A DNA stretch of 64,000 bases from a virus. Shown here one piece after another: positions 24,529 through 64,000 of this stretch; position 1 is the first letter of the stretch, and each line of letters opens with the position of its first letter. Under the pieces are notes generated by a model. That model did not search any database. It worked only from the letters and a program-made list of their open reading frames with translations, and was not told the origin of the DNA. The stretch is taken from positions 24,912-88,911 of IMG/VR virus record IMGVR_UViG_3300009182_000039, one strand, 5' to 3'. A program made the position numbers and the translations under genes.

Positions 24529-24830
24529 TTAATATTTGGTTCCGTTTTTTTAACTACTATACTGACATCGGTGGGATGACACGGAATACCAGTTTTGGCA
24601 GGGTACAATCTTTTTACTATCGATGTATCGAGCACAACTATGTTATTATCAACTACTCTTATGTGTGTAGGAGGATTAACATATACTTCTCTAGTAATGT
24701 CTATATAATTACCTGGCAAATCCTCTTGGCTATAAAAAAGTGGCTGGCCTTGATCATCATAATACAGCCTATATAGAATAGGTTTTGGTTCTGCGGGTGT
24801 TAATGCCGCCCAAAATTCTTGTTCATTCAT
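24513..24830 (-). CDS. Hypothetical protein
   Basis: ORF overlapping both neighbours in the operon. Confidence 0.55.
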   Translation of the reverse strand: MNEQEFWAALTPAEPKPILYRLYYDDQGQPLFYSQEDLPGNYIDITREVYVNPPTHIRVVDNNIVVLDTSIVKRLYPAKTGIPCHPTDVSIVVKKTEPNIKWSLR

Positions 24831-25110
24831 CGTGTAAGCCGTGATGTGGTCGGTCGATATCTTGGAATAAGCGTTTTTCCTGTGCTGTTAGTTTATCTTT
24901 TCCTTTGGCCGTTTCGTTATGCCGAGGATTAGAGCACATAGGACAATGCGGGATGCCGCAATCCATAGCATGATGTTTAGCCAAGCGATGCGGTTCCTCG
25001 ATTGGTTTAGTAAGCCCATGAGACTTAGCAATTCTTAATTGTTTTTTAATTGCGGTCCAGGCTTTGTGTAAACGCTTACTATGTTTAATCTTATCTTCAT
25101 CTTTACTCAT
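24823..25110 (-). CDS. Small basic protein with a CGIPHCPMC putative Zn-binding motif
   Basis: K/H-rich; C-x4-C-x2-C. Confidence 0.55.
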   Translation of the reverse strand: MSKDEDKIKHSKRLHKAWTAIKKQLRIAKSHGLTKPIEEPHRLAKHHAMDCGIPHCPMCSNPRHNETAKGKDKLTAQEKRLFQDIDRPHHGLHDE

Positions 25111-57640: not shown

Positions 57641-58657
57641 ATGACAAATCTATTCCGTAAAGTAGCAGTTTGTACTGACCTCCACTGGGGATTAAAGTCC
57701 AATAGTCTAGTACATAATCGTGATTGCGCAGCATTTATTGATTGGTTTATTGCCAAAGCTAAAGAAGAAGGTTGCGAAACCGGTATGTTCTTAGGCGATT
57801 GGCACAATCATCGTGCTAGTATCAATTTACAAACATTACAATTTAGTGTTCAAGCATTAGAAAAACTATCAAAAGCATTTGATAAGTTTTATTTTATCCC
57901 AGGTAATCACGATTTATACTATCGTGATAAACGGGATATCCACGGTGCTGAGTGGGCCAAACATATCCCAAACATTATTATTGTTAACGATTGGTTCAAA
58001 GAAGGAGATGTTGTTATTGCTCCTTGGCTAGTAGGCGACGATCATAAAAAATTACAAAAAATGTCAGCCAAATATATGTTTGGGCATTTTGAATTGCCAC
58101 ATTTTAAAATGAATGCCATGGTGGAAATGCCCGATCACGGAGAAATTAGTATAGACAGTTTTGGTGGAGTTGAAAGTGTATATTCTGGGCATTTTCATTT
58201 GCGTCAACAAAAGAAAAATATTACATATATTGGAAATTGTTTCCCGCACAATTTTGCCGATGCTGGCGATAGTGATCGTGGCATGATGATTAAAGAATGG
58301 GGCAAAGAAGACCAGTACTTTGCTTGGCCTGGCCAGCCGTTGTACCGTGTTATGAAGTTAAGCGACGCCATCGACAACGGTGCTAATATATTTGTACCTA
58401 ATATGCATGTTCGTGTTGAATTAGACATTGATATTAGTTACGAAGAAGCTAACTTTATTAAAGAAACATTTATTAAAGATTATAATTTGCGTGAGATGGC
58501 GTTAATACCTAGTAAGAAGACTGATATTAACACTGATTTAGCTCCAGGAGATGTTAAGTTTGAATCTGTGGATCAAATTGTAACCGATCAGCTGACTAAT
58601 ATAGCATCAGAGTTTTATGACAACAAGTTATTACTAAAAATTTATCAAAATCTATGA
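57641..58657 (+). CDS. gp47: Recombination endonuclease subunit (gp47/Mre11/SbcD-like)
   Basis: TDLHWG, LGDW, GNHD, GHF, SGHFH metallophosphoesterase motifs. Confidence 0.92.
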   Translation: MTNLFRKVAVCTDLHWGLKSNSLVHNRDCAAFIDWFIAKAKEEGCETGMFLGDWHNHRASINLQTLQFSVQALEKLSKAFDKFYFIPGNHDLYYRDKRDIHGAEWAKHIPNIIIVNDWFKEGDVVIAPWLVGDDHKKLQKMSAKYMFGHFELPHFKMNAMVEMPDHGEISIDSFGGVESVYSGHFHLRQQKKNITYIGNCFPHNFADAGDSDRGMMIKEWGKEDQYFAWPGQPLYRVMKLSDAIDNGANIFVPNMHVRVELDIDISYEEANFIKETFIKDYNLREMALIPSKKTDINTDLAPGDVKFESVDQIVTDQLTNIASEFYDNKLLLKIYQNL

Positions 58658-60417
58658 TACAAATAAAAAATTTAAGTGTTAAAAATTTCATGAGTGTGGG
58701 TAATGCTACACAAGGAATTAACTTTGATCGACAAGACTTAACCTTAGTTCTAGGCGAAAATATGGATTTAGGTGGAGATGGTAGCAGAAATGGTACTGGT
58801 AAGACCACTATTATCAATGCGTTAAGCTATGCTATGTATGGCACAGCATTAAGCAATATCCGCAAAGATAACTTAGTTAATAAAACTAACGGTAAAAATA
58901 TGTTAGTATCGTTAGAGTTTACTGTTGGCAATCAAGACTATAAAATTGAACGAGGGCGTAAACCTAACTTCTTAAAATTTTATATTAATAATAAAGAAAC
59001 CGAAGCAGACGACAATGCCCAAGGCGATAGTCGCGAAACACAAGATGCTATTGAAAATATTTTAGGTATGAGTCACGATATGTTCAAGCATATCATGGCG
59101 TTGAACACTTATACCGAACCGTTTTTATCATTAAAATCTAATGATCAGCGTACTATTATCGAACAGCTACTTGGTATTACCATGCTATCTGAGCGGGCTG
59201 AAAAAATTAAAGAATTAAATCGCACTACCAAAGAAGATATCACTAAGGAAGAGTTTAGAATCCGTGCTGTACAGGATGCTAACAAGCGCATACAGGAACA
59301 AATTGAATCTTTAAAGCGCAGACAAGGATTATGGGTAACCAAACATGAAGAAGATATCAAAGAACTTGAGAAAGCACTATCGTCGCTCCAGAAAATTAAT
59401 ATTGAACAAGAGATACAGGCACACAAGGACCACAAAGCCTGGGATCAAAAAAGGAAGGATATCAACGATTTATCTAGTCAGATCAGTCGCACGAAAATGG
59501 ATGTTACACGGGAAGACAAAACGATTTCCAAGGTATCTAAAGAAATTGAGACTCTTGAAAAGCATGAATGTCACACATGCGGGCAGGCCTTCCACGACGG
59601 TAAGCACGAATCAGTTTTGGCGAGCAAACAGAAAGATTTGGCAACAGCTCGACAGAATTTCGACGAACATACACAGCTCTTATCAGAATTGGAGGCTGCC
59701 CATGAAGCCTTGGGCGTGTTAGGCAAGCCTCCCAAGATGTTCTATGACACCGAAGAGCAAGCAATACAACATCGCAGTACTATTGAAGGATTAGTAACAC
59801 AAATAACTGGTAAAAAAGCAGAAGTTGATCCTTATGATGACCAAATTGATGAAATGACTAATCAAGCATTAGAAGAAGTATCTTACGATGCGCTAAACGA
59901 TTTAACAAAATTACAGGAACATCAAGACTTTTTGCTTAAACTATTAACAAGTAAAGATAGTTTTATTCGTAAAAAGATTATTGAACAAAACTTATCCTAC
60001 TTAAATGCTCGATTAACACACTATTTAGATCGTATTGGTTTGCCACATACTGTTGTATTCCAAAATGACTTAACTGTTAGTATCGAAGAACTAGGCCGTG
60101 AGCTAGACTTTGATAATTTAAGTCGTGGCGAACGCAACAGACTTATATTAAGTATGGCATGGGCGTTCCGTGATGTATTTGAGTCACTTTACACACCAAT
60201 TAATGTATTGTTTATCGATGAAATGATCGATAACGGATTAGATACACAAGGTGTGGAGTCGGCACTAGCCTTATTGAAACAAATGTCGCGGGAACGACAC
60301 AAAAGTATTTGGTTAGTAAGTCACAGAGACGAGTTAGCAGGGCGAGTAGAAAACATTCTTAAAGTAGTTAAAGAAGGCGGATTTACTAGTTATAACACAG
60401 ATATTGAAACAGCATGA
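58654..60417 (+). CDS. gp46: Recombination ATPase subunit (gp46/Rad50/SbcC-like)
   Basis: KNFMS, NGTGKT Walker A, coiled coil with CHTC zinc hook, LSRGE signature, FIDE Walker B, VSH. Confidence 0.92.
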   Translation: MIQIKNLSVKNFMSVGNATQGINFDRQDLTLVLGENMDLGGDGSRNGTGKTTIINALSYAMYGTALSNIRKDNLVNKTNGKNMLVSLEFTVGNQDYKIERGRKPNFLKFYINNKETEADDNAQGDSRETQDAIENILGMSHDMFKHIMALNTYTEPFLSLKSNDQRTIIEQLLGITMLSERAEKIKELNRTTKEDITKEEFRIRAVQDANKRIQEQIESLKRRQGLWVTKHEEDIKELEKALSSLQKINIEQEIQAHKDHKAWDQKRKDINDLSSQISRTKMDVTREDKTISKVSKEIETLEKHECHTCGQAFHDGKHESVLASKQKDLATARQNFDEHTQLLSELEAAHEALGVLGKPPKMFYDTEEQAIQHRSTIEGLVTQITGKKAEVDPYDDQIDEMTNQALEEVSYDALNDLTKLQEHQDFLLKLLTSKDSFIRKKIIEQNLSYLNARLTHYLDRIGLPHTVVFQNDLTVSIEELGRELDFDNLSRGERNRLILSMAWAFRDVFESLYTPINVLFIDEMIDNGLDTQGVESALALLKQMSRERHKSIWLVSHRDELAGRVENILKVVKEGGFTSYNTDIETA

Positions 60418-60460
60418 TGAAATTTTTAAGTACCACAATATCAGCGATAACTATTAGTCC

Positions 60461-60889
60461 ATGTCTTGGCTTTATGAAAATCAAACTATCGAAGTATTAC
60501 CAGAAGACTGTATTGGGTTCGTTTACTTAATTACAAATACACTTTCTGGCCGGAAATATGTAGGAAAAAAATTAGCAAAATTTAGTAAAACAACATATAA
60601 AGTAGTAAAACTTAAAAACGGTAAAAAGAAACGCAAGAAAATCAAAAGTAAAATAGATTCAGACTGGCAACAATATTATGGCAGCAATATAGAGTTAAAC
60701 AAAGACATCAAACAACTAGGCAGCGAAAATTTTACAAGAGAAATATTATACTACTGTAGGTCCAAGGCTGAATGTAGTTATATTGAAGCTCGTGAGCAAT
60801 TTAATAGAAAAGTACTAGAAACTAAAGACTATTATAACGGACATATACAAGTTCGTGTACATGGTAGTCATATAATCAACAAAATTTAA
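60461..60889 (+). CDS. Small stand-alone GIY-YIG (Seg-like) endonuclease
   Basis: GFVYLITN...KYVGKK, YYGS, F.REIL, E, YYN. Confidence 0.8.
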   Translation: MSWLYENQTIEVLPEDCIGFVYLITNTLSGRKYVGKKLAKFSKTTYKVVKLKNGKKKRKKIKSKIDSDWQQYYGSNIELNKDIKQLGSENFTREILYYCRSKAECSYIEAREQFNRKVLETKDYYNGHIQVRVHGSHIINKI

Positions 60890-60894
60890 TCATC

Positions 60895-61310
60895 ATTGTA
60901 AGGCATCATTAAGACAATGTTTGGTCGAGGTAGCTCGACTCGCAAGGAGGAACGGTGAGATACCCGGTCTGGATGAGCTTGTGTGTCAAAGGCAAATGCT
61001 AACTTAAGGCATCAAATGGTTTGGGCAACGTGAAACAGATACGACCCATGCTTATAGGACTTGGATTTATTATTGGGTCACTAGGGTTCCGTTGATATGT
61101 GAAGCTAGAGTAAGGGGTACCGGTCAACCGCCTCTGCGTCGTAAGACAATCTCTTTATAATAAATGACTGTGCAACTCAGATGAAGTTTGTAACAATCAT
61201 GTTTGCCGTTTATACGGTGAATTGTGACCGATTAATCTAGATGAAGTATTCAAAAACAAAAATAAGACGAGCTGTTAAGCGAGTCTTAGATTAGCTACGC
61301 TAATCTTTCA
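60895..61310 (+). ncRNA. Candidate large structured non-coding RNA, family not recognised; strand inferred
   Basis: About 420 nt with no ORF of 60 aa or more; multiple hairpins, a 9-bp long-range helix and a terminal hairpin. Confidence 0.6.
61288..61308. terminator. Terminal hairpin/terminator between convergent units
   Basis: AGATTAGC-TAC-GCTAATCT followed by TT. Confidence 0.55.
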
Positions 61311-61313
61311 ATG

Positions 61314-61526
61314 TTAGAAGAACGGCATGCCCGACTTCTTAGTTGTTTCCATATTGTCTTTAATAATTTGTCCAATAAGTCTTCGTTCTGAAATACTTAA
61401 ATGTAATGCTTGGTCGTAGAGTAATCCACCACGCATATACCAAGACATTCGTAACGCCTCTGCTCTAATCTCGTTTATTTCTTCATCCATGCCGTCAACA
61501 TATTTGGCGACACCGTCAGAGTCCAA
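61314..61526 (-). CDS. Small hub/tail assembly chaperone ORF, probably the -1 frameshift extension of 61529..62368
   Basis: Annotated start is a TTG without an SD; the frame is open back through the slippery T TTT TTC site. Confidence 0.65.
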   Translation of the reverse strand: MDSDGVAKYVDGMDEEINEIRAEALRMSWYMRGGLLYDQALHLSISERRLIGQIIKDNMETTKKSGMPFF

Positions 61527-61528
61527 GG

Positions 61529-62368
61529 TTAGGAGGCGGGCCCGAAAAAACTTGTCATATCCAATGTAATATTTTGTTTATATTCATTTTCACATTGCCC
61601 ACATTTGATATTAACAGGCTGCATTTCTGCTTGAGTTTTGTGCCCAATTACATATTCTTGAATACGATTAAACAGTCCACGGTCGCAGTTTTTCATAAAT
61701 TCAGAAATATACTCAGGTTCACTTACCATAGCTTGTGGAGTCTTAATTGTAAGTATACTTTGCGACAACGCCATAACTGTCATTTCAGTCATCTTTTTAA
61801 GGGCTTGTGACATAGCAGCAATTTGCTGTGTGTCTACATTACCGTCAGTTGGTATAGACTGAAAAATTCGTTGTTCATCAAATTGTATTTTATTATTATC
61901 TGACAAATTTTTATAAGTCATTGGTTTAAAATAAATTTCAATATCACCTTGTTTAATAGCTTCGCTGTAATCAGGAGATTTAATTTTATCAATAACTGAA
62001 CGCAAATCAACAGCATAATCATCGGTGGTATTACATTTTGGACATTGGGTAGCAAACTCCATGTCGTGTCCGTAACTGGCAATGCGAATAGCTACTAAAA
62101 TAGTATCAATATCGATAGAAGGGATAGCCCACGCATCTTTGATGTTTGGTACACAACTTTGAATAACATTGATAACAGCTTGTCCACTGAACAATGCATC
62201 TGGTGTGCGATAAGTGATTTCATCGATGGCAGTCATGGGTAAAACCGGCAATTCCCCATTTTGGGGCATTTCCAATGCGCCAGGTGGGTAATAATTACCT
62301 TGGCTAGGCAATTTAATATAAATTGCCGGTTGTCTAAAATATTGGCTTAACGGGTTGTTCGAAATCAT
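61529..62368 (-). CDS. Baseplate hub/tail assembly chaperone (T4 gp26-like)
   Basis: IKLPSQG.YY, PMTAIDE, D.DTILVAIRIASYG, CPKC and C-terminal CGQC. Confidence 0.75.
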   Translation of the reverse strand: MISNNPLSQYFRQPAIYIKLPSQGNYYPPGALEMPQNGELPVLPMTAIDEITYRTPDALFSGQAVINVIQSCVPNIKDAWAIPSIDIDTILVAIRIASYGHDMEFATQCPKCNTTDDYAVDLRSVIDKIKSPDYSEAIKQGDIEIYFKPMTYKNLSDNNKIQFDEQRIFQSIPTDGNVDTQQIAAMSQALKKMTEMTVMALSQSILTIKTPQAMVSEPEYISEFMKNCDRGLFNRIQEYVIGHKTQAEMQPVNIKCGQCENEYKQNITLDMTSFFGPAS

Positions 62369-62381
62369 GTATTTTTCCTTG

Positions 62382-62389
62382 TATAAATA
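62382..62389 (+). promoter_or_regulatory. Late promoter TATAAATA, 6 nt before the ATG at 62396
   Basis: Exact motif. Confidence 0.7.
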
Positions 62390-62395
62390 TTAATT

Positions 62396-64000
62396 ATGGC
62401 AGATCAACTCGACCCAAAAGATATTCAAGACATTGTCGACACTTATACTGAGCACTTAGCCCAAGGTATTCCAATTTCTGAAGAACTTGCTCAAAAAATG
62501 AAAGATGCTTCTACGGGCATCAAAGATTATACTAAAAATTTAAAAGCCAGCAAAGAAGCTTTGATGGGCAGTTTGAAATCCCTTGGTATGTCCATGGTCA
62601 ATGGCGAATCTGGGGCCGCAGTTTACAACAATGCTATTAATGCTGGTGCTAAAACTTTTAGTAGTTGGGCAAAGAAAATTCCTATTGTTGGTAATGCTCT
62701 AGGTAAGGTAGCAGAAGCAGCAGCCACTTATGAAAATGCTGTTGCTGAACAAGCAGATGCATTATTTAAAAGTTATCAAGACATAAGTCGTTCTGGTATT
62801 GCTACCGGAATGCAAGATGCGTTTAAAAATTTACAAGACGCTGGATATACAATGAAAGAAATTGGCCAATACGGTCAATTAATGAAAGAAAATTCTGCAG
62901 TACTTGCGACCATGGGTGGCACCACTGCTCAAGGAGCAGCAGAGTTTGCTAAAGTATCAAAAAACATTAAAAATTCTCAATTAGAAACACAGTTCATGCG
63001 TATGGGTATGACTGTTAATGATATCAACAGTGGTATAGCAAACTATGTAAAAATACAGCAATTAAGTGGGTCAACATTACAACAAAATGACAAACAAATT
63101 GCAGCCAGTGCCGCTGAATATATTTTAGAACAAGATAAAGTAACTAAAGTAACAGGCCTTACAGCTGATCAACAAAATAAAATTTATGAAGGCGCTCTAG
63201 CTCAGGAACAATTTGCGGCTAAAACATTTCAATTACAGCAAGCGGCGGCAGCAGGTGACGAACAAGCAAAAGCTGAACTATCAAGAAATAGACAGTTAGT
63301 TGAATTTGCCATGGCCAAAGGCGGGCCCGAAGCAGCTAAACAAGCTCAGCTATACATAGCTGGAGCTGTCAATACAAAAGGTTATCAACAATTCCAAAGA
63401 AGTTTTGCTCAAACTGCCGACTACATAGATAAAGGCGGCACCGATGTAGGTAAAGCACAAAATTTATTAGTTAATGATGCTAAAGTGTTAGTCAAAGATC
63501 AAGCAAGATTAGGTCAATTTGGAGCATTCAATACCACATACACTCCAATACAAGAAGCAGGAAAATTAGCGGCAGCTTCGGTAAAAGATTATGCCGTAGC
63601 TAATAAAGATGCCGCTGAGCAACAGCAAAAACAAATAAAAGCTACCGACGAAGCTACTGGCGCCATGGTTGATACGACTATGGATCAACGGGACATAACT
63701 CAATCGGCTGATCATGTAATTAACAAAGGTGTCCCAGCAGTTACTAAAGGATTATCTGGATTATCTAGTGTCACACAACAATTAACCAGTGTGTTTGGAC
63801 AGTTAGCTGGCAAACAAGGACAAATTGGTGGAGGTACAACACTACTGAATAAAATTGGTATAGGCGGAGCAGCTGCTCCGTCCGCAGCAGGTGGAGCGGC
63901 AGCAGGTGGAGCGGCAGCAGGTGGAGCGGCAGCAGGCGGAGCGGCAGCAGGCGGAGCGGCAGCAGGCGGAGCGGCAGCAGGCGGAGCGGCAGCAGGCGGA
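62396..64000 (+). CDS. Tape-measure-like protein, 3'-truncated by the window edge (not in the ORF track)
   Basis: Frame MADQLDPKDIQDIV... appears open to the window end; A/Q/K-rich helical composition; adjacent to the chaperone gene. Confidence 0.7.
   Translation, partial: MADQLDPKDIQDIVDTYTEHLAQGIPISEELAQKMKDASTGIKDYTKNLKASKEALMGSLKSLGMSMVNGESGAAVYNNAINAGAKTFSSWAKKIPIVGNALGKVAEAAATYENAVAEQADALFKSYQDISRSGIATGMQDAFKNLQDAGYTMKEIGQYGQLMKENSAVLATMGGTTAQGAAEFAKVSKNIKNSQLETQFMRMGMTVNDINSGIANYVKIQQLSGSTLQQNDKQIAASAAEYILEQDKVTKVTGLTADQQNKIYEGALAQEQFAAKTFQLQQAAAAGDEQAKAELSRNRQLVEFAMAKGGPEAAKQAQLYIAGAVNTKGYQQFQRSFAQTADYIDKGGTDVGKAQNLLVNDAKVLVKDQARLGQFGAFNTTYTPIQEAGKLAAASVKDYAVANKDAAEQQQKQIKATDEATGAMVDTTMDQRDITQSADHVINKGVPAVTKGLSGLSSVTQQLTSVFGQLAGKQGQIGGGTTLLNKIGIGGAAAPSAAGGAAAGGAAAGGAAAGGAAAGGAAAGGAAAGGAAAGG
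63884..64000 (+). repeat. 15-bp in-frame tandem repeat GCAGCAGG(T/C)GGAGCG, at least 7.8 copies, encoding (AAGGA)n
   Basis: 3 GGT copies then GGC copies; runs off the window end. Confidence 0.95.

What the first reader, a model, noticed from the sequence alone, without database searches (positions are those of the whole stretch)
60461..61310. GIY-YIG nuclease gene followed directly by a ~420-nt structured candidate ncRNA
Seen: this is by far the largest non-coding gap in a tightly packed window. It looks more GC-rich than other intergenic DNA and begins right after the stop of a 142-aa GIY-YIG protein with no obvious promoter between. Visible pairings: GTCGAG-GTAG-CTCGAC (60924-39); ATGC..GCAT; TGGG..CGT-GAAA..ACG..CCCA (61022-48); a 9-bp long-range helix ATTTATTAT (61065-73)/ATAATAAAT (61157-65) enclosing three sub-stems, including GTC-GTAA-GAC with a GNRA loop; GCCGT-TTAT-ACGGT; TAAGAC/GTCTTA; and an 8-bp terminal hairpin. 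The protein is a bare catalytic domain with a very basic insert (KLKNGKKKRKKIKSK) and no appended DNA-recognition domain of the kind found in I-TevI-type homing enzymes. Inference: a nuclease plus cognate RNA (scaffold, guide or ribozyme), conceptually like IscB/omegaRNA. Alternatives are an independent phage RNA or an RNA-primed replication origin next to gp46/47.
Basis: partly seen in the sequence, partly recalled or inferred. Interest (0 to 1): 0.85.

Follow-up and report, generated by a model that had tools for sequence, protein, structure and literature searches.

The report
Large knotted twin-box phage RNA gene
The 424-base gene-free stretch behind a small nuclease gene of this uncultured giant freshwater phage encodes a real, intricately folded RNA of about 410 bases that probably works on its own rather than as the nuclease's guide; its job is unknown, and so is the reason it carries the same 7-letter word twice.

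Summary
Window 60890-61313 is the largest non-coding gap, 424 nt against 116 nt for the next. The RNA lies on the + strand, about 60898-61310. It has a 5' domain, a core with two pseudoknots, a 3' domain and two terminal hairpins.

The nuclease-plus-guide reading is not supported. The RNA also occurs behind an unrelated PD-(D/E)XK nuclease gene. It occurs 1-2 kb away from the GIY-YIG gene, and once with no nuclease gene directly beside it. GIY-YIG relatives in four cultured phages have no such RNA. No guide-like variable segment exists.

Rfam 15 gives no match in the window. In a sister subtype, the 5' third of the homologous RNA is the orphan Rfam motif Polynucleobacter-1 (RF01718). The window's RNA is therefore an uncatalogued variant of a partly catalogued family.

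One feature is unexplained. Two 7-nt words (61179-85 and 61239-45) are identical in 99 of 99 relatives, although nine different words occur.

Earlier notes of this scan describe the same RNA on more than 15 other stretches of DNA. Function is unknown. My best guess is a stand-alone, trans-acting RNA.

The parts
60461..60889 (+). GIY-YIG nuclease gene, 142 aa, catalytic domain only. It is a neighbour, not shown to be a partner.
   Evidence: Pfam PF19835 SegE_GIY-YIG E 1e-31 over residues 3-129. PHROG 447. No PDB sequence match. 65-96% identical in the relatives, at the same place in nearly all.
60898..60907 (+). Upstream word GUAAGGCAUC (UUAGAWAGGCAAC in relatives). Probable 5' boundary signal of the RNA: a processing site, an operator or a special promoter.
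   Evidence: It lies 8-12 nt before the first helix in most type-1 relatives whatever gene lies upstream, and is sometimes tandem. The same word lies 4-7 nt before the ATG of the gp32 SSB gene and of a 115-aa gene in the complete genomes G002 and G003. A lake metatranscriptome contig ends at 60897 followed by Illumina adapter.
60898..61310 (+). The whole RNA gene, about 410 nt.
   Evidence: Conserved at 75-95% in IMG/VR relatives. 90 pairs are supported on alignment A1. G-U pairs fit only the + strand.
60913..61012 (+). 5' domain. Closing helix 60913-15/60985-87, hairpin 60923-40, helix 60941-44/60980-83 enclosing hairpin 60949-70, and hairpin 60996-61012 with loop UAACUUAAG.
   Evidence: Covariation (60913/60987 is GC 83, CG 13). 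No RF01718 match here. Some relatives insert an extra GNRA hairpin at about 60975.
61019..61168 (+). Conserved core, the region of model R1. Hairpin 61022-48; long stem 61050-64/61073-87; three-way junction 61107-10/61151-54 with hairpins 61113-35 and 61138-47; near-invariant stretch 61084-61135.
   Evidence: A2: 97.9% paired and 22 pairs changed on both sides. R1 scores 183.9 bits here, 16-40 bits in the type-2 relatives and 103-174 bits in other divergent relatives (L084/L090, L125, L144, L172, L184, L189, L195).
61065..61072 (+). Pseudoknot 1, 5' strand (loop of the long stem). It pairs with 61158-61165.
   Evidence: 5 of 8 pairs change on both sides. Relatives L172 and L195 replace both strands together.
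61158..61165 (+). Pseudoknot 1, 3' strand.
   Evidence: As above.
61091..61095 (+). Pseudoknot 2, GUUGA. It pairs with UCAAC at 61124-61128.
   Evidence: Invariant in type 1. It covaries in type 2: GUCG/CGAC, GUCA/UGAC, GUCAG/CUGAC.
61124..61128 (+). Pseudoknot 2, UCAAC.
   Evidence: As above.
61177..61186 (+). Twin box copy 1 (UC-AGAUGAA-G), in a hairpin loop.
   Evidence: The 7-mer 61179-85 equals 61239-45 in 99 of 99 distinct relatives, with 9 different words. At least 26 changes of the word on a tree built without the box columns.
61202..61221 (+). Hairpin between the boxes.
   Evidence: 8 pairs, 100% paired. The sequence is different but still paired in type 2.
61236..61246 (+). Twin box copy 2 (UCU-AGAUGAA-G), single-stranded, followed by an A-rich linker.
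   Evidence: It is also present in L125 and in type 2.
61263..61305 (+). Two terminal hairpins (61263-88 with a conserved GAGC..AGCGA loop; 61289-61305). Probable 3' end, facing the convergent gene.
   Evidence: Covariation. The next gene (61314-61526) is on the - strand.

Best explanation
**What it is.** A stand-alone gene for a structured non-coding RNA of about 410 nt. It is the last element of the rightward gp47-gp46-nuclease transcription unit of a giant T4-like freshwater phage.

**Shown:**
- The RNA is real, with about 90 conserved base pairs.
- Its core holds two pseudoknots.
- It is present once in each of two complete genomes of about 340 kb.
- Convergent genes follow it in the window and in nearly all syntenic relatives. 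L125 is the exception: there same-strand genes lie on both sides. So it does not look like a 5' leader.
- It can be separated from the GIY-YIG gene.

**Inferred:**
- It is set free as a discrete RNA. The 5' end would be near 60898, at a conserved word that also precedes the gp32 gene. The 3' end would be at the hairpins ending at 61305.
- It acts in trans as a folded scaffold. The scaffold exposes two identical single-stranded 7-nt words, one in a hairpin loop and one in a linker, to one common partner. That partner could be a protein dimer, a host RNA, or each other.
- The nuclease gene beside it is a syntenic neighbour from the recombination module, not its effector.
For: - **Structure and conservation:**
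- **Strand:** G-U pairs fit only the + strand.
- **Copy number:** one copy per complete genome.
- **End of the unit:** in the syntenic loci the downstream genes are on the opposite strand, including the cassettes inserted in relatives.
- **Separable from GIY-YIG:**
- **Boundary word:** it is shared with the gp32 gene and another gene. Ordinary genes use AAGGAG and TAAATA instead.
- **RNA fragment end:** at 60897.
- **Twin boxes:** identical in 99 of 99 relatives, with at least 26 changes of the word. They are kept in type 2 and in the locus with a different context.
Against: - **No proof of expression.** Contigs of three lake metatranscriptomes cover the GIY-YIG, p70 and baseplate genes but not 60911-61333. 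By the tool's own terms a hole proves nothing, but it gives no support either.
- **No partner found.** There is no complementary word nearby. None covaries at alignable sites between two complete genomes. None occurs above chance genome-wide.
- **The neighbour is suggestive.** A nuclease gene is the upstream neighbour in nearly every locus, and two unrelated nuclease families occupy that place.
Confidence: 0.5

Rival explanations
1. Nuclease cofactor. The RNA binds whichever small nuclease is encoded upstream, GIY-YIG or PD-(D/E)XK. It supplies target recognition or scaffolding, with the twin boxes as the recognition words.
For: The RNA lies directly behind a nuclease gene on the same strand in nearly all loci. 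The GIY-YIG protein has no DNA-binding domain. The boxes vary between phages.
Against: Two unrelated folds would have to use the same RNA. L125 has no directly adjacent nuclease gene. The GIY-YIG family is widespread without the RNA. Other genes are often inserted between the two. The boxes do not track GIY-YIG residues. Seven nucleotides with five variable positions are not a guide. Both nuclease families resemble recombination or structure-specific nucleases and sit beside gp46/gp47.
Confidence: 0.08
2. Ribozyme. The double-pseudoknotted, near-invariant core catalyses a reaction, for instance cleaving itself off the upstream mRNA near 60897/60898, or cutting and joining at the two identical boxes.
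For: The core is near-invariant and has two pseudoknots and GNRA hairpins. An RNA fragment ends at 60897. Two identical sites would suit a two-cut reaction.
Against: No Rfam ribozyme family matches, even at E up to 10. The topology is not that of a group I intron, and no gene is interrupted. The end at 60897 rests on one contig. The same boundary word precedes protein genes, which fits a trans-acting enzyme or a promoter better.
Confidence: 0.12
3. Decoy against host defence or host RNA metabolism. The folded RNA shows two copies of a mimic of a host target, for instance the substrate of a defence nuclease or the site of an RNA-binding protein. It soaks up that factor. Box words would then differ with the host.
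For: The boxes are accessible and duplicated, and they differ among phages. No partner is encoded in the phage. The phages encode no reverse transcriptase or Ro protein of their own.
Against: No host is known. No similarity to any known target was found. The many switches between closely related phages are hard to reconcile with conserved host molecules.
Confidence: 0.12
4. Cis-acting element. It could be a pre-primer or R-loop RNA of a replication origin beside the recombination genes. It could also be a 3'-end stabiliser or insulator between convergent transcription units.
For: It lies at the junction of the replication/recombination module and the structural module, between convergent genes. 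A box RNA could pair with the DNA of the other box only if the two are identical.
Against: About 90 conserved pairs and two pseudoknots are far more than a terminator or primer needs. In L125 the RNA sits inside a same-strand gene row in another context. No AT-rich unwinding element or iterons were seen.
Confidence: 0.1

Closest known systems
Polynucleobacter-1 RNA motif (Rfam RF01718; Weinberg et al. 2010, PMC2864571)
   Same: In sister ('type 2') RNAs at the same genomic place, the 5' third scores 70-116 bits against RF01718 (gathering score 37). It is followed by the same core, hairpin and twin boxes as in the window. Both occur in fresh water (the table in PMC2864571 read gives Burkholderiales, fresh water/estuary). 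The function of both is unknown.
   Different: The window's own 5' domain gives no RF01718 match, even at E up to 10. Type-1 loci L119, L021, L172 and L125 give none either. A sequence profile of the type-1 5' domain finds nothing in type-2 loci. RF01718 covers 141 nt and none of the pseudoknotted core or the boxes. The 2010 table marked it as probably cis-regulatory. Here no same-strand gene follows the RNA in the window or in nearly all relatives.
GOLLD and ROOL large ornate RNAs of phages and prophages (Rfam)
   Same: They are large, intricately folded, phage-borne non-coding RNAs with GNRA hairpins and pseudoknots, and their function is unknown.
   Different: There is no Rfam match, and this RNA is smaller (about 410 nt). 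GOLLD and ROOL are not known to me to carry identical twin words. Multimer formation was not tested here.
OMEGA systems (IscB or TnpB with omega RNA, HEARO)
   Same: A nuclease gene sits next to a structured RNA of a few hundred nucleotides.
   Different: There is no HEARO match, no guide segment and no transposon ends. The nuclease and the RNA can be separated. The nuclease here belongs to GIY-YIG or PD-(D/E)XK, not RuvC/HNH.
Template-jumping RNAs of defence reverse transcriptases (DRT2, DRT10; the abstract of bioRxiv 10.64898/2026.06.29.735271 listed, the rest from my own knowledge)
   Same: Short identical words at both ends of a segment would let a copying enzyme jump back and make tandem repeats.
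   Different: The two complete phage genomes hold no reverse transcriptase. The unit length varies from 49 to 64 nt. In 82 of 99 relatives no frame of the repeated unit stays open.

Membership tests
Rfam RF01718 Polynucleobacter-1 | A score at or above the family's gathering score (37 bits) with the Rfam covariance model. | tested here: not met
   cmscan of window 59000-63000 at E up to 10 gave no match at all. The same model scores 70-116 bits in the type-2 relatives L046, L058, L065, L102 and L113.
Rfam RF01718 Polynucleobacter-1 | Homology of the window's 5' domain to the motif. | tested here: inconclusive
   An nhmmer profile of the type-1 5' domain finds nothing in 26 type-2 loci. By eye, both show the same order of hairpins, and the last hairpin followed by a U-rich G tract looks alike. 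Homology of the rest of the RNA is shown by model R1.
Nuclease with guide RNA (OMEGA-like) | Nuclease and RNA always occur together. | tested here: not met
   The RNA occurs with a PF24608 nuclease instead of GIY-YIG, or with no directly adjacent nuclease gene. GIY-YIG relatives occur without the RNA in four whole phage genomes.
Nuclease with guide RNA (OMEGA-like) | A variable guide segment next to a conserved scaffold. | tested here: not met
   The only unpaired variable words are the 7-nt twin boxes, with nine words among 99 relatives. The other variable parts are hairpins that keep their pairing.
Nuclease with guide RNA (OMEGA-like) | Physical binding of the RNA to the nuclease, and RNA-dependent cleavage. 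| not testable with these tools
   This needs biochemistry.
Group I intron | It interrupts a gene, has the P3-P7 pseudoknot topology and matches the Rfam intron model. | tested here: not met
   gp46 is complete and the next gene is convergent. The pseudoknots are hairpin loop to downstream strand and loop to loop. There is no Rfam match.
Riboswitch or 5' leader | A regulated gene follows on the same strand. | tested here: not met
   The next gene is on the - strand in the window and in the syntenic relatives, including the cassettes inserted there. L125 is the only locus seen with same-strand genes downstream.
Free-standing Seg-type homing endonuclease (for the GIY-YIG gene) | A GIY-YIG catalytic domain. 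| tested here: met
   PF19835, E 1e-31.
Free-standing Seg-type homing endonuclease (for the GIY-YIG gene) | An appended DNA-binding domain and a sporadic distribution among related genomes. | tested here: not met
   Of 142 aa, residues 3-129 are the catalytic domain. The gene is present at the same place in nearly all relatives. In some it is replaced by a resolvase-like PD-(D/E)XK gene.
GOLLD / ROOL / HEARO and all other Rfam 15 families | A match to the family model. | tested here: not met
   No match at E up to 10.

The most novel reading that the evidence does not exclude
The two always-identical 7-nt words are a functional device of a kind not yet described. One possibility is direct, in-register (parallel-strand) pairing of like with like inside the RNA. 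The other is that they are twin recognition words through which the RNA directs the neighbouring small nuclease, GIY-YIG or PD-(D/E)XK, or another enzyme to nucleic acid. In the second case the locus would be a new RNA-assisted nuclease system of giant phages.
Probability: 0.1. Interest if true: 0.9.

Novelty: new variant of a known kind. Interest (0 to 1): 0.62.

Why it matters
- **A candidate new RNA class.** Large RNAs with many conserved pairs and multiple pseudoknots are rare, and they have usually turned out to be ribozymes, riboswitches or parts of RNA-protein machines. This one is common in uncultured giant T4-like phages of lakes. It occurs once per genome and is better conserved than the proteins around it.
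- **It extends an old orphan motif.** Polynucleobacter-1 has been in Rfam since 2010. This work shows that motif to be only the optional 5' domain of a much larger RNA. That makes its function testable in a defined genomic setting.
- **A new kind of constraint.** The twin words are identical in every relative despite at least 26 changes. This is a sequence constraint I cannot match to any described RNA mechanism.

Tried and rejected
- **Single-sequence folding.** Not significant on either strand.
- **Coding remnant.** No ORF longer than 42 aa lies in the gap. Variation follows base pairs, not codons.
- **GenBank phages.** No blastn match, even for the invariant core at E up to 10.
- **Bacterial genomes.** A pattern of the invariant core gave only chance matches in GC-rich genomes. 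Model R1 rejected all 80 loci it was run on.
- **Third partner for the boxes.** The MI scan found none inside the RNA. None lies within the fetched loci. No 8-mer excess exists in the 89-kb contig. None covaries between G002 and G003. None occurs above chance genome-wide; one 12-nt complement in G003 has no counterpart in G002.
- **Tandem-repeat gene idea.** The unit length is 49-64 nt. In 82 of 99 relatives no frame of the repeated unit stays open, and the rest share none. No reverse transcriptase is present.
- **Y-RNA idea.** No Ro/TROVE protein is present.
- **Coevolution of boxes with GIY-YIG.** None beyond background.
- **Metatranscriptome contigs.** Three RNA runs do not cover 60911-61333. 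This shows neither presence nor absence of the RNA.
- **Kin of a virus record.** The genome search does not draw relatives for a virus record.
- **Paper on 10,000 viral structured RNAs.** The text of PMC10690425 holds nothing that can be tied to this RNA. Its supplements were not read.

Full report
**Setting.** The window is the right-hand 64 kb of an 88.9-kb IMG/VR contig, rated 17% complete. It comes from a T4-like phage. Around the finding the genes are:
- a gp47-like phosphoesterase, 57641-58657
- a gp46-like SMC/AAA protein, 58654-60417
- a 142-aa GIY-YIG protein, 60461-60889
- the gap
- on the opposite strand, a 70-aa ORF (61314-61526) and a T4 baseplate protein (61529-62368)

Two relatives are complete genomes of 346,856 and 337,119 bp with terminal repeats. 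Each holds one copy of the RNA. Public runs that hold the stretch are freshwater and lake metagenomes from 19 studies.

**Checking the observation.** The gap is 424 nt, and the next largest in the window is 116 nt. Its GC content is 0.42, against 0.29 for the other gaps. Folding the single sequence is not better than shuffles, so I turned to relatives.

Searches seeded with the baseplate protein, with the GIY-YIG protein and with an invariant 34-nt pattern each returned many IMG/VR contigs. blastn found the gap sequence in most of them at 75-95% identity. It is always on the GIY-YIG strand, in the order gp47, gp46, (variable), nuclease, (0-2 kb), RNA, (0-3 kb), p70, baseplate. The RNA is often better conserved than the flanking proteins.

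**Structure.** Three analyses agree: an alignment of 39 full-length sequences (A1), RNAalifold, and my own mutual-information scan of 99 distinct sequences. The helices are these:
- a closing helix 60913-15/60985-87
- hairpin 60923-40
- helix 60941-44/60980-83 around hairpin 60949-70
- hairpin 60996-61012
- hairpin 61022-48
- a three-way junction 61107-10/61151-54, with hairpin 61113-35 and a GNRA hairpin 61138-47
- hairpin 61202-21
- two terminal hairpins, 61263-88 and 61289-61305

On A1, 90 pairs are 91.5% paired, against 36-48% with slid partners. Of these, 47 pairs changed on both sides. On 77 core sequences the figures are 97.9% against about 45%. G-U pairs fit only the + strand.

The divergent relatives L172 and L195 replace both strands of the long stem and of the first pseudoknot together. 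A second pseudoknot, GUUGA 61091-95 with UCAAC 61124-28, is invariant in the window's subtype. It covaries in the other subtype.

**Two subtypes and the link to Rfam.** A covariance model of the core (R1) found weaker but consistently placed matches of 16-40 bits. They lie 170-330 nt behind the GIY-YIG gene in nearly all loci where blastn had found nothing. These 'type 2' RNAs keep the core, the hairpin between the boxes and the boxes themselves, but have a different 5' domain.

Earlier notes of this scan on other genomes named Rfam RF01718, Polynucleobacter-1, as a relative, so I tested that. The Rfam model scores 70-116 bits on the 5' third of five type-2 RNAs. It gives nothing on the window at E up to 10, nor on the type-1 loci L119, L021, L172 and L125. 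A sequence profile of the type-1 5' domain finds nothing in type-2 loci.

The window's RNA is therefore not a member of RF01718 as that family is defined. It belongs to a larger, uncatalogued family in which RF01718 is one form of a replaceable 5' domain. The 2010 paper lists the motif only in a table, as a likely RNA that is probably cis-regulatory, from Burkholderiales and fresh water.

**Is it tied to the nuclease?** The evidence is against a strict tie.
- In L172, L195, L144, L184 and L189 the gene in front of the RNA is a PF24608 PD-(D/E)XK endonuclease. PHROGs calls it a RusA-like resolvase.
- In L125 the RNA lies in another gene row, with no nuclease gene directly beside it.
- Many relatives have 1-2 kb of other same-strand genes between the GIY-YIG gene and the RNA.
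- The GIY-YIG family (PHROG 447, often mislabelled 'NAD synthetase') is found in more than 500 GenBank phage records. Four such genomes, searched whole, have no R1 match.
- The variable box positions associate with GIY-YIG residues no better than 170 other variable RNA columns do.

Two unrelated small nucleases occupy the same place beside gp46/gp47. This looks to me like replacement of a recombination nuclease, with the RNA as a syntenic neighbour. That last step is inference.

**What kind of element?**
- In the window and the syntenic relatives, the genes after the RNA are on the opposite strand. A riboswitch or leader is therefore unlikely.
- No gene is interrupted and the topology is wrong for a group I intron.
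- The gap holds no ORF longer than 42 aa.
- No sigma-70 promoter or canonical terminator was found.

Eight to twelve nucleotides before the first helix lies a conserved word: GUAAGGCAUC here, UUAGAWAGGCAAC in most relatives, and sometimes tandem. It is present whatever gene lies upstream. In both complete genomes the same word lies 4-7 nt before the start codons of the gp32 single-strand-binding protein gene and of a 115-aa gene. Ordinary genes there show AAGGAG and the T4 late-promoter word TAAATA. One lake metatranscriptome contig ends at 60897, just before the word, and runs on into Illumina adapter. Together these hint at a defined 5' end made by processing or by a special promoter. This is a lead, not a result.

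**The twin boxes.** The 7-mers 61179-85 and 61239-45 are identical to each other in all 99 distinct relatives. Nine different words occur, and five of the seven positions vary. On a tree built without the box columns the word changes at least 26 times. Recombination may inflate that count. Type 2 and L125 keep the rule. Copy 1 sits in a hairpin loop and copy 2 in a single-stranded linker. Each is preceded by UGAC and 7-8 nt.

I found no third copy or complement. None is inside the RNA, in the flanks, or at aligned sites of two complete genomes, and none occurs above chance genome-wide. A rolling template for tandem repeats is unlikely, because the phages encode no reverse transcriptase, the unit length varies, and 82 of 99 relatives have no open frame.

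Transversion pairs in ordinary helices of this RNA also show no sampled intermediates (61107/61154 is AU 54, UA 45). Direct like-with-like contact of the two boxes is therefore possible. Purine-to-pyrimidine changes, however, fit a common base-pairing partner better. This remains unexplained.

**Expression.** Contigs of three lake metatranscriptomes cover the neighbouring genes but not the RNA. By the tool's own terms this proves nothing. Expression of the RNA is not shown.

**Verdict.** The nuclease-guide reading is not supported.

The RNA is a new variant of a partly catalogued family, and earlier notes of this scan describe it on more than 15 other stretches of DNA. Its function is unknown. 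I commit, at about even odds, to a stand-alone trans-acting scaffold RNA that presents its two identical words to one partner.

Noticed in passing
window 61314-61552 (- strand): The 70-aa ORF starts 2 nt after the stop of the baseplate gene. In all relatives the two ORFs stay adjacent, 5-15 nt apart and in the same order. I did not test this.
   Followed up: no
G002 13300 and 254535; G003 21, 102716 and 336988 (loci L365, L377, L383, L388, L399): The word TTAGAWAGGCAAC, often tandem, lies directly before the gp32 SSB gene and a 115-aa gene of unknown function, as well as before the RNA. It occurs only a handful of times per 340-kb genome. It may be an operator, a processing site or a special promoter.
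   Followed up: partly
L125 10800-10850 (- strand): Three and a half tandem copies of CACACTTAGG lie directly upstream of the RNA in the one locus with a different gene context. A 3'-5' exoribonuclease gene (PF16473) lies 1 kb downstream on the same strand.
   Followed up: no
L045, L066, L127, L147 and others; L195 7003-9306: In several relatives the gp46 match spans about 2080 nt instead of 1761. In L195 it is split around an extra ORF, which suggests an intein or a mobile insertion in gp46. In many loci gp47 and gp46 are separated by inserted genes.
   Followed up: no
relatives L057, L045, L051, L066, L089, L108, L110, between the RNA and p70: A recurring cassette of three genes on the opposite strand (about 111, 143 and 167 aa; the last carries a PHPALGGWAPCPYAR motif) is inserted between the RNA and p70. 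It is absent from the window.
   Followed up: no
window 63800-64000: The tape-measure-like ORF runs into a GC-rich (0.65) run of AAAGG peptide repeats at the contig end.
   Followed up: no
window 24767-24840: This is the only tRNA gene in the window. ARAGORN calls it tRNA-Ile with the unusual anticodon AAU.
   Followed up: no
window 60996-61013: The loop and 3' strand of this hairpin (CUUAAGGCAUC) repeat the upstream boundary word (AAGGCAWC). The RNA therefore carries that word twice.
   Followed up: no
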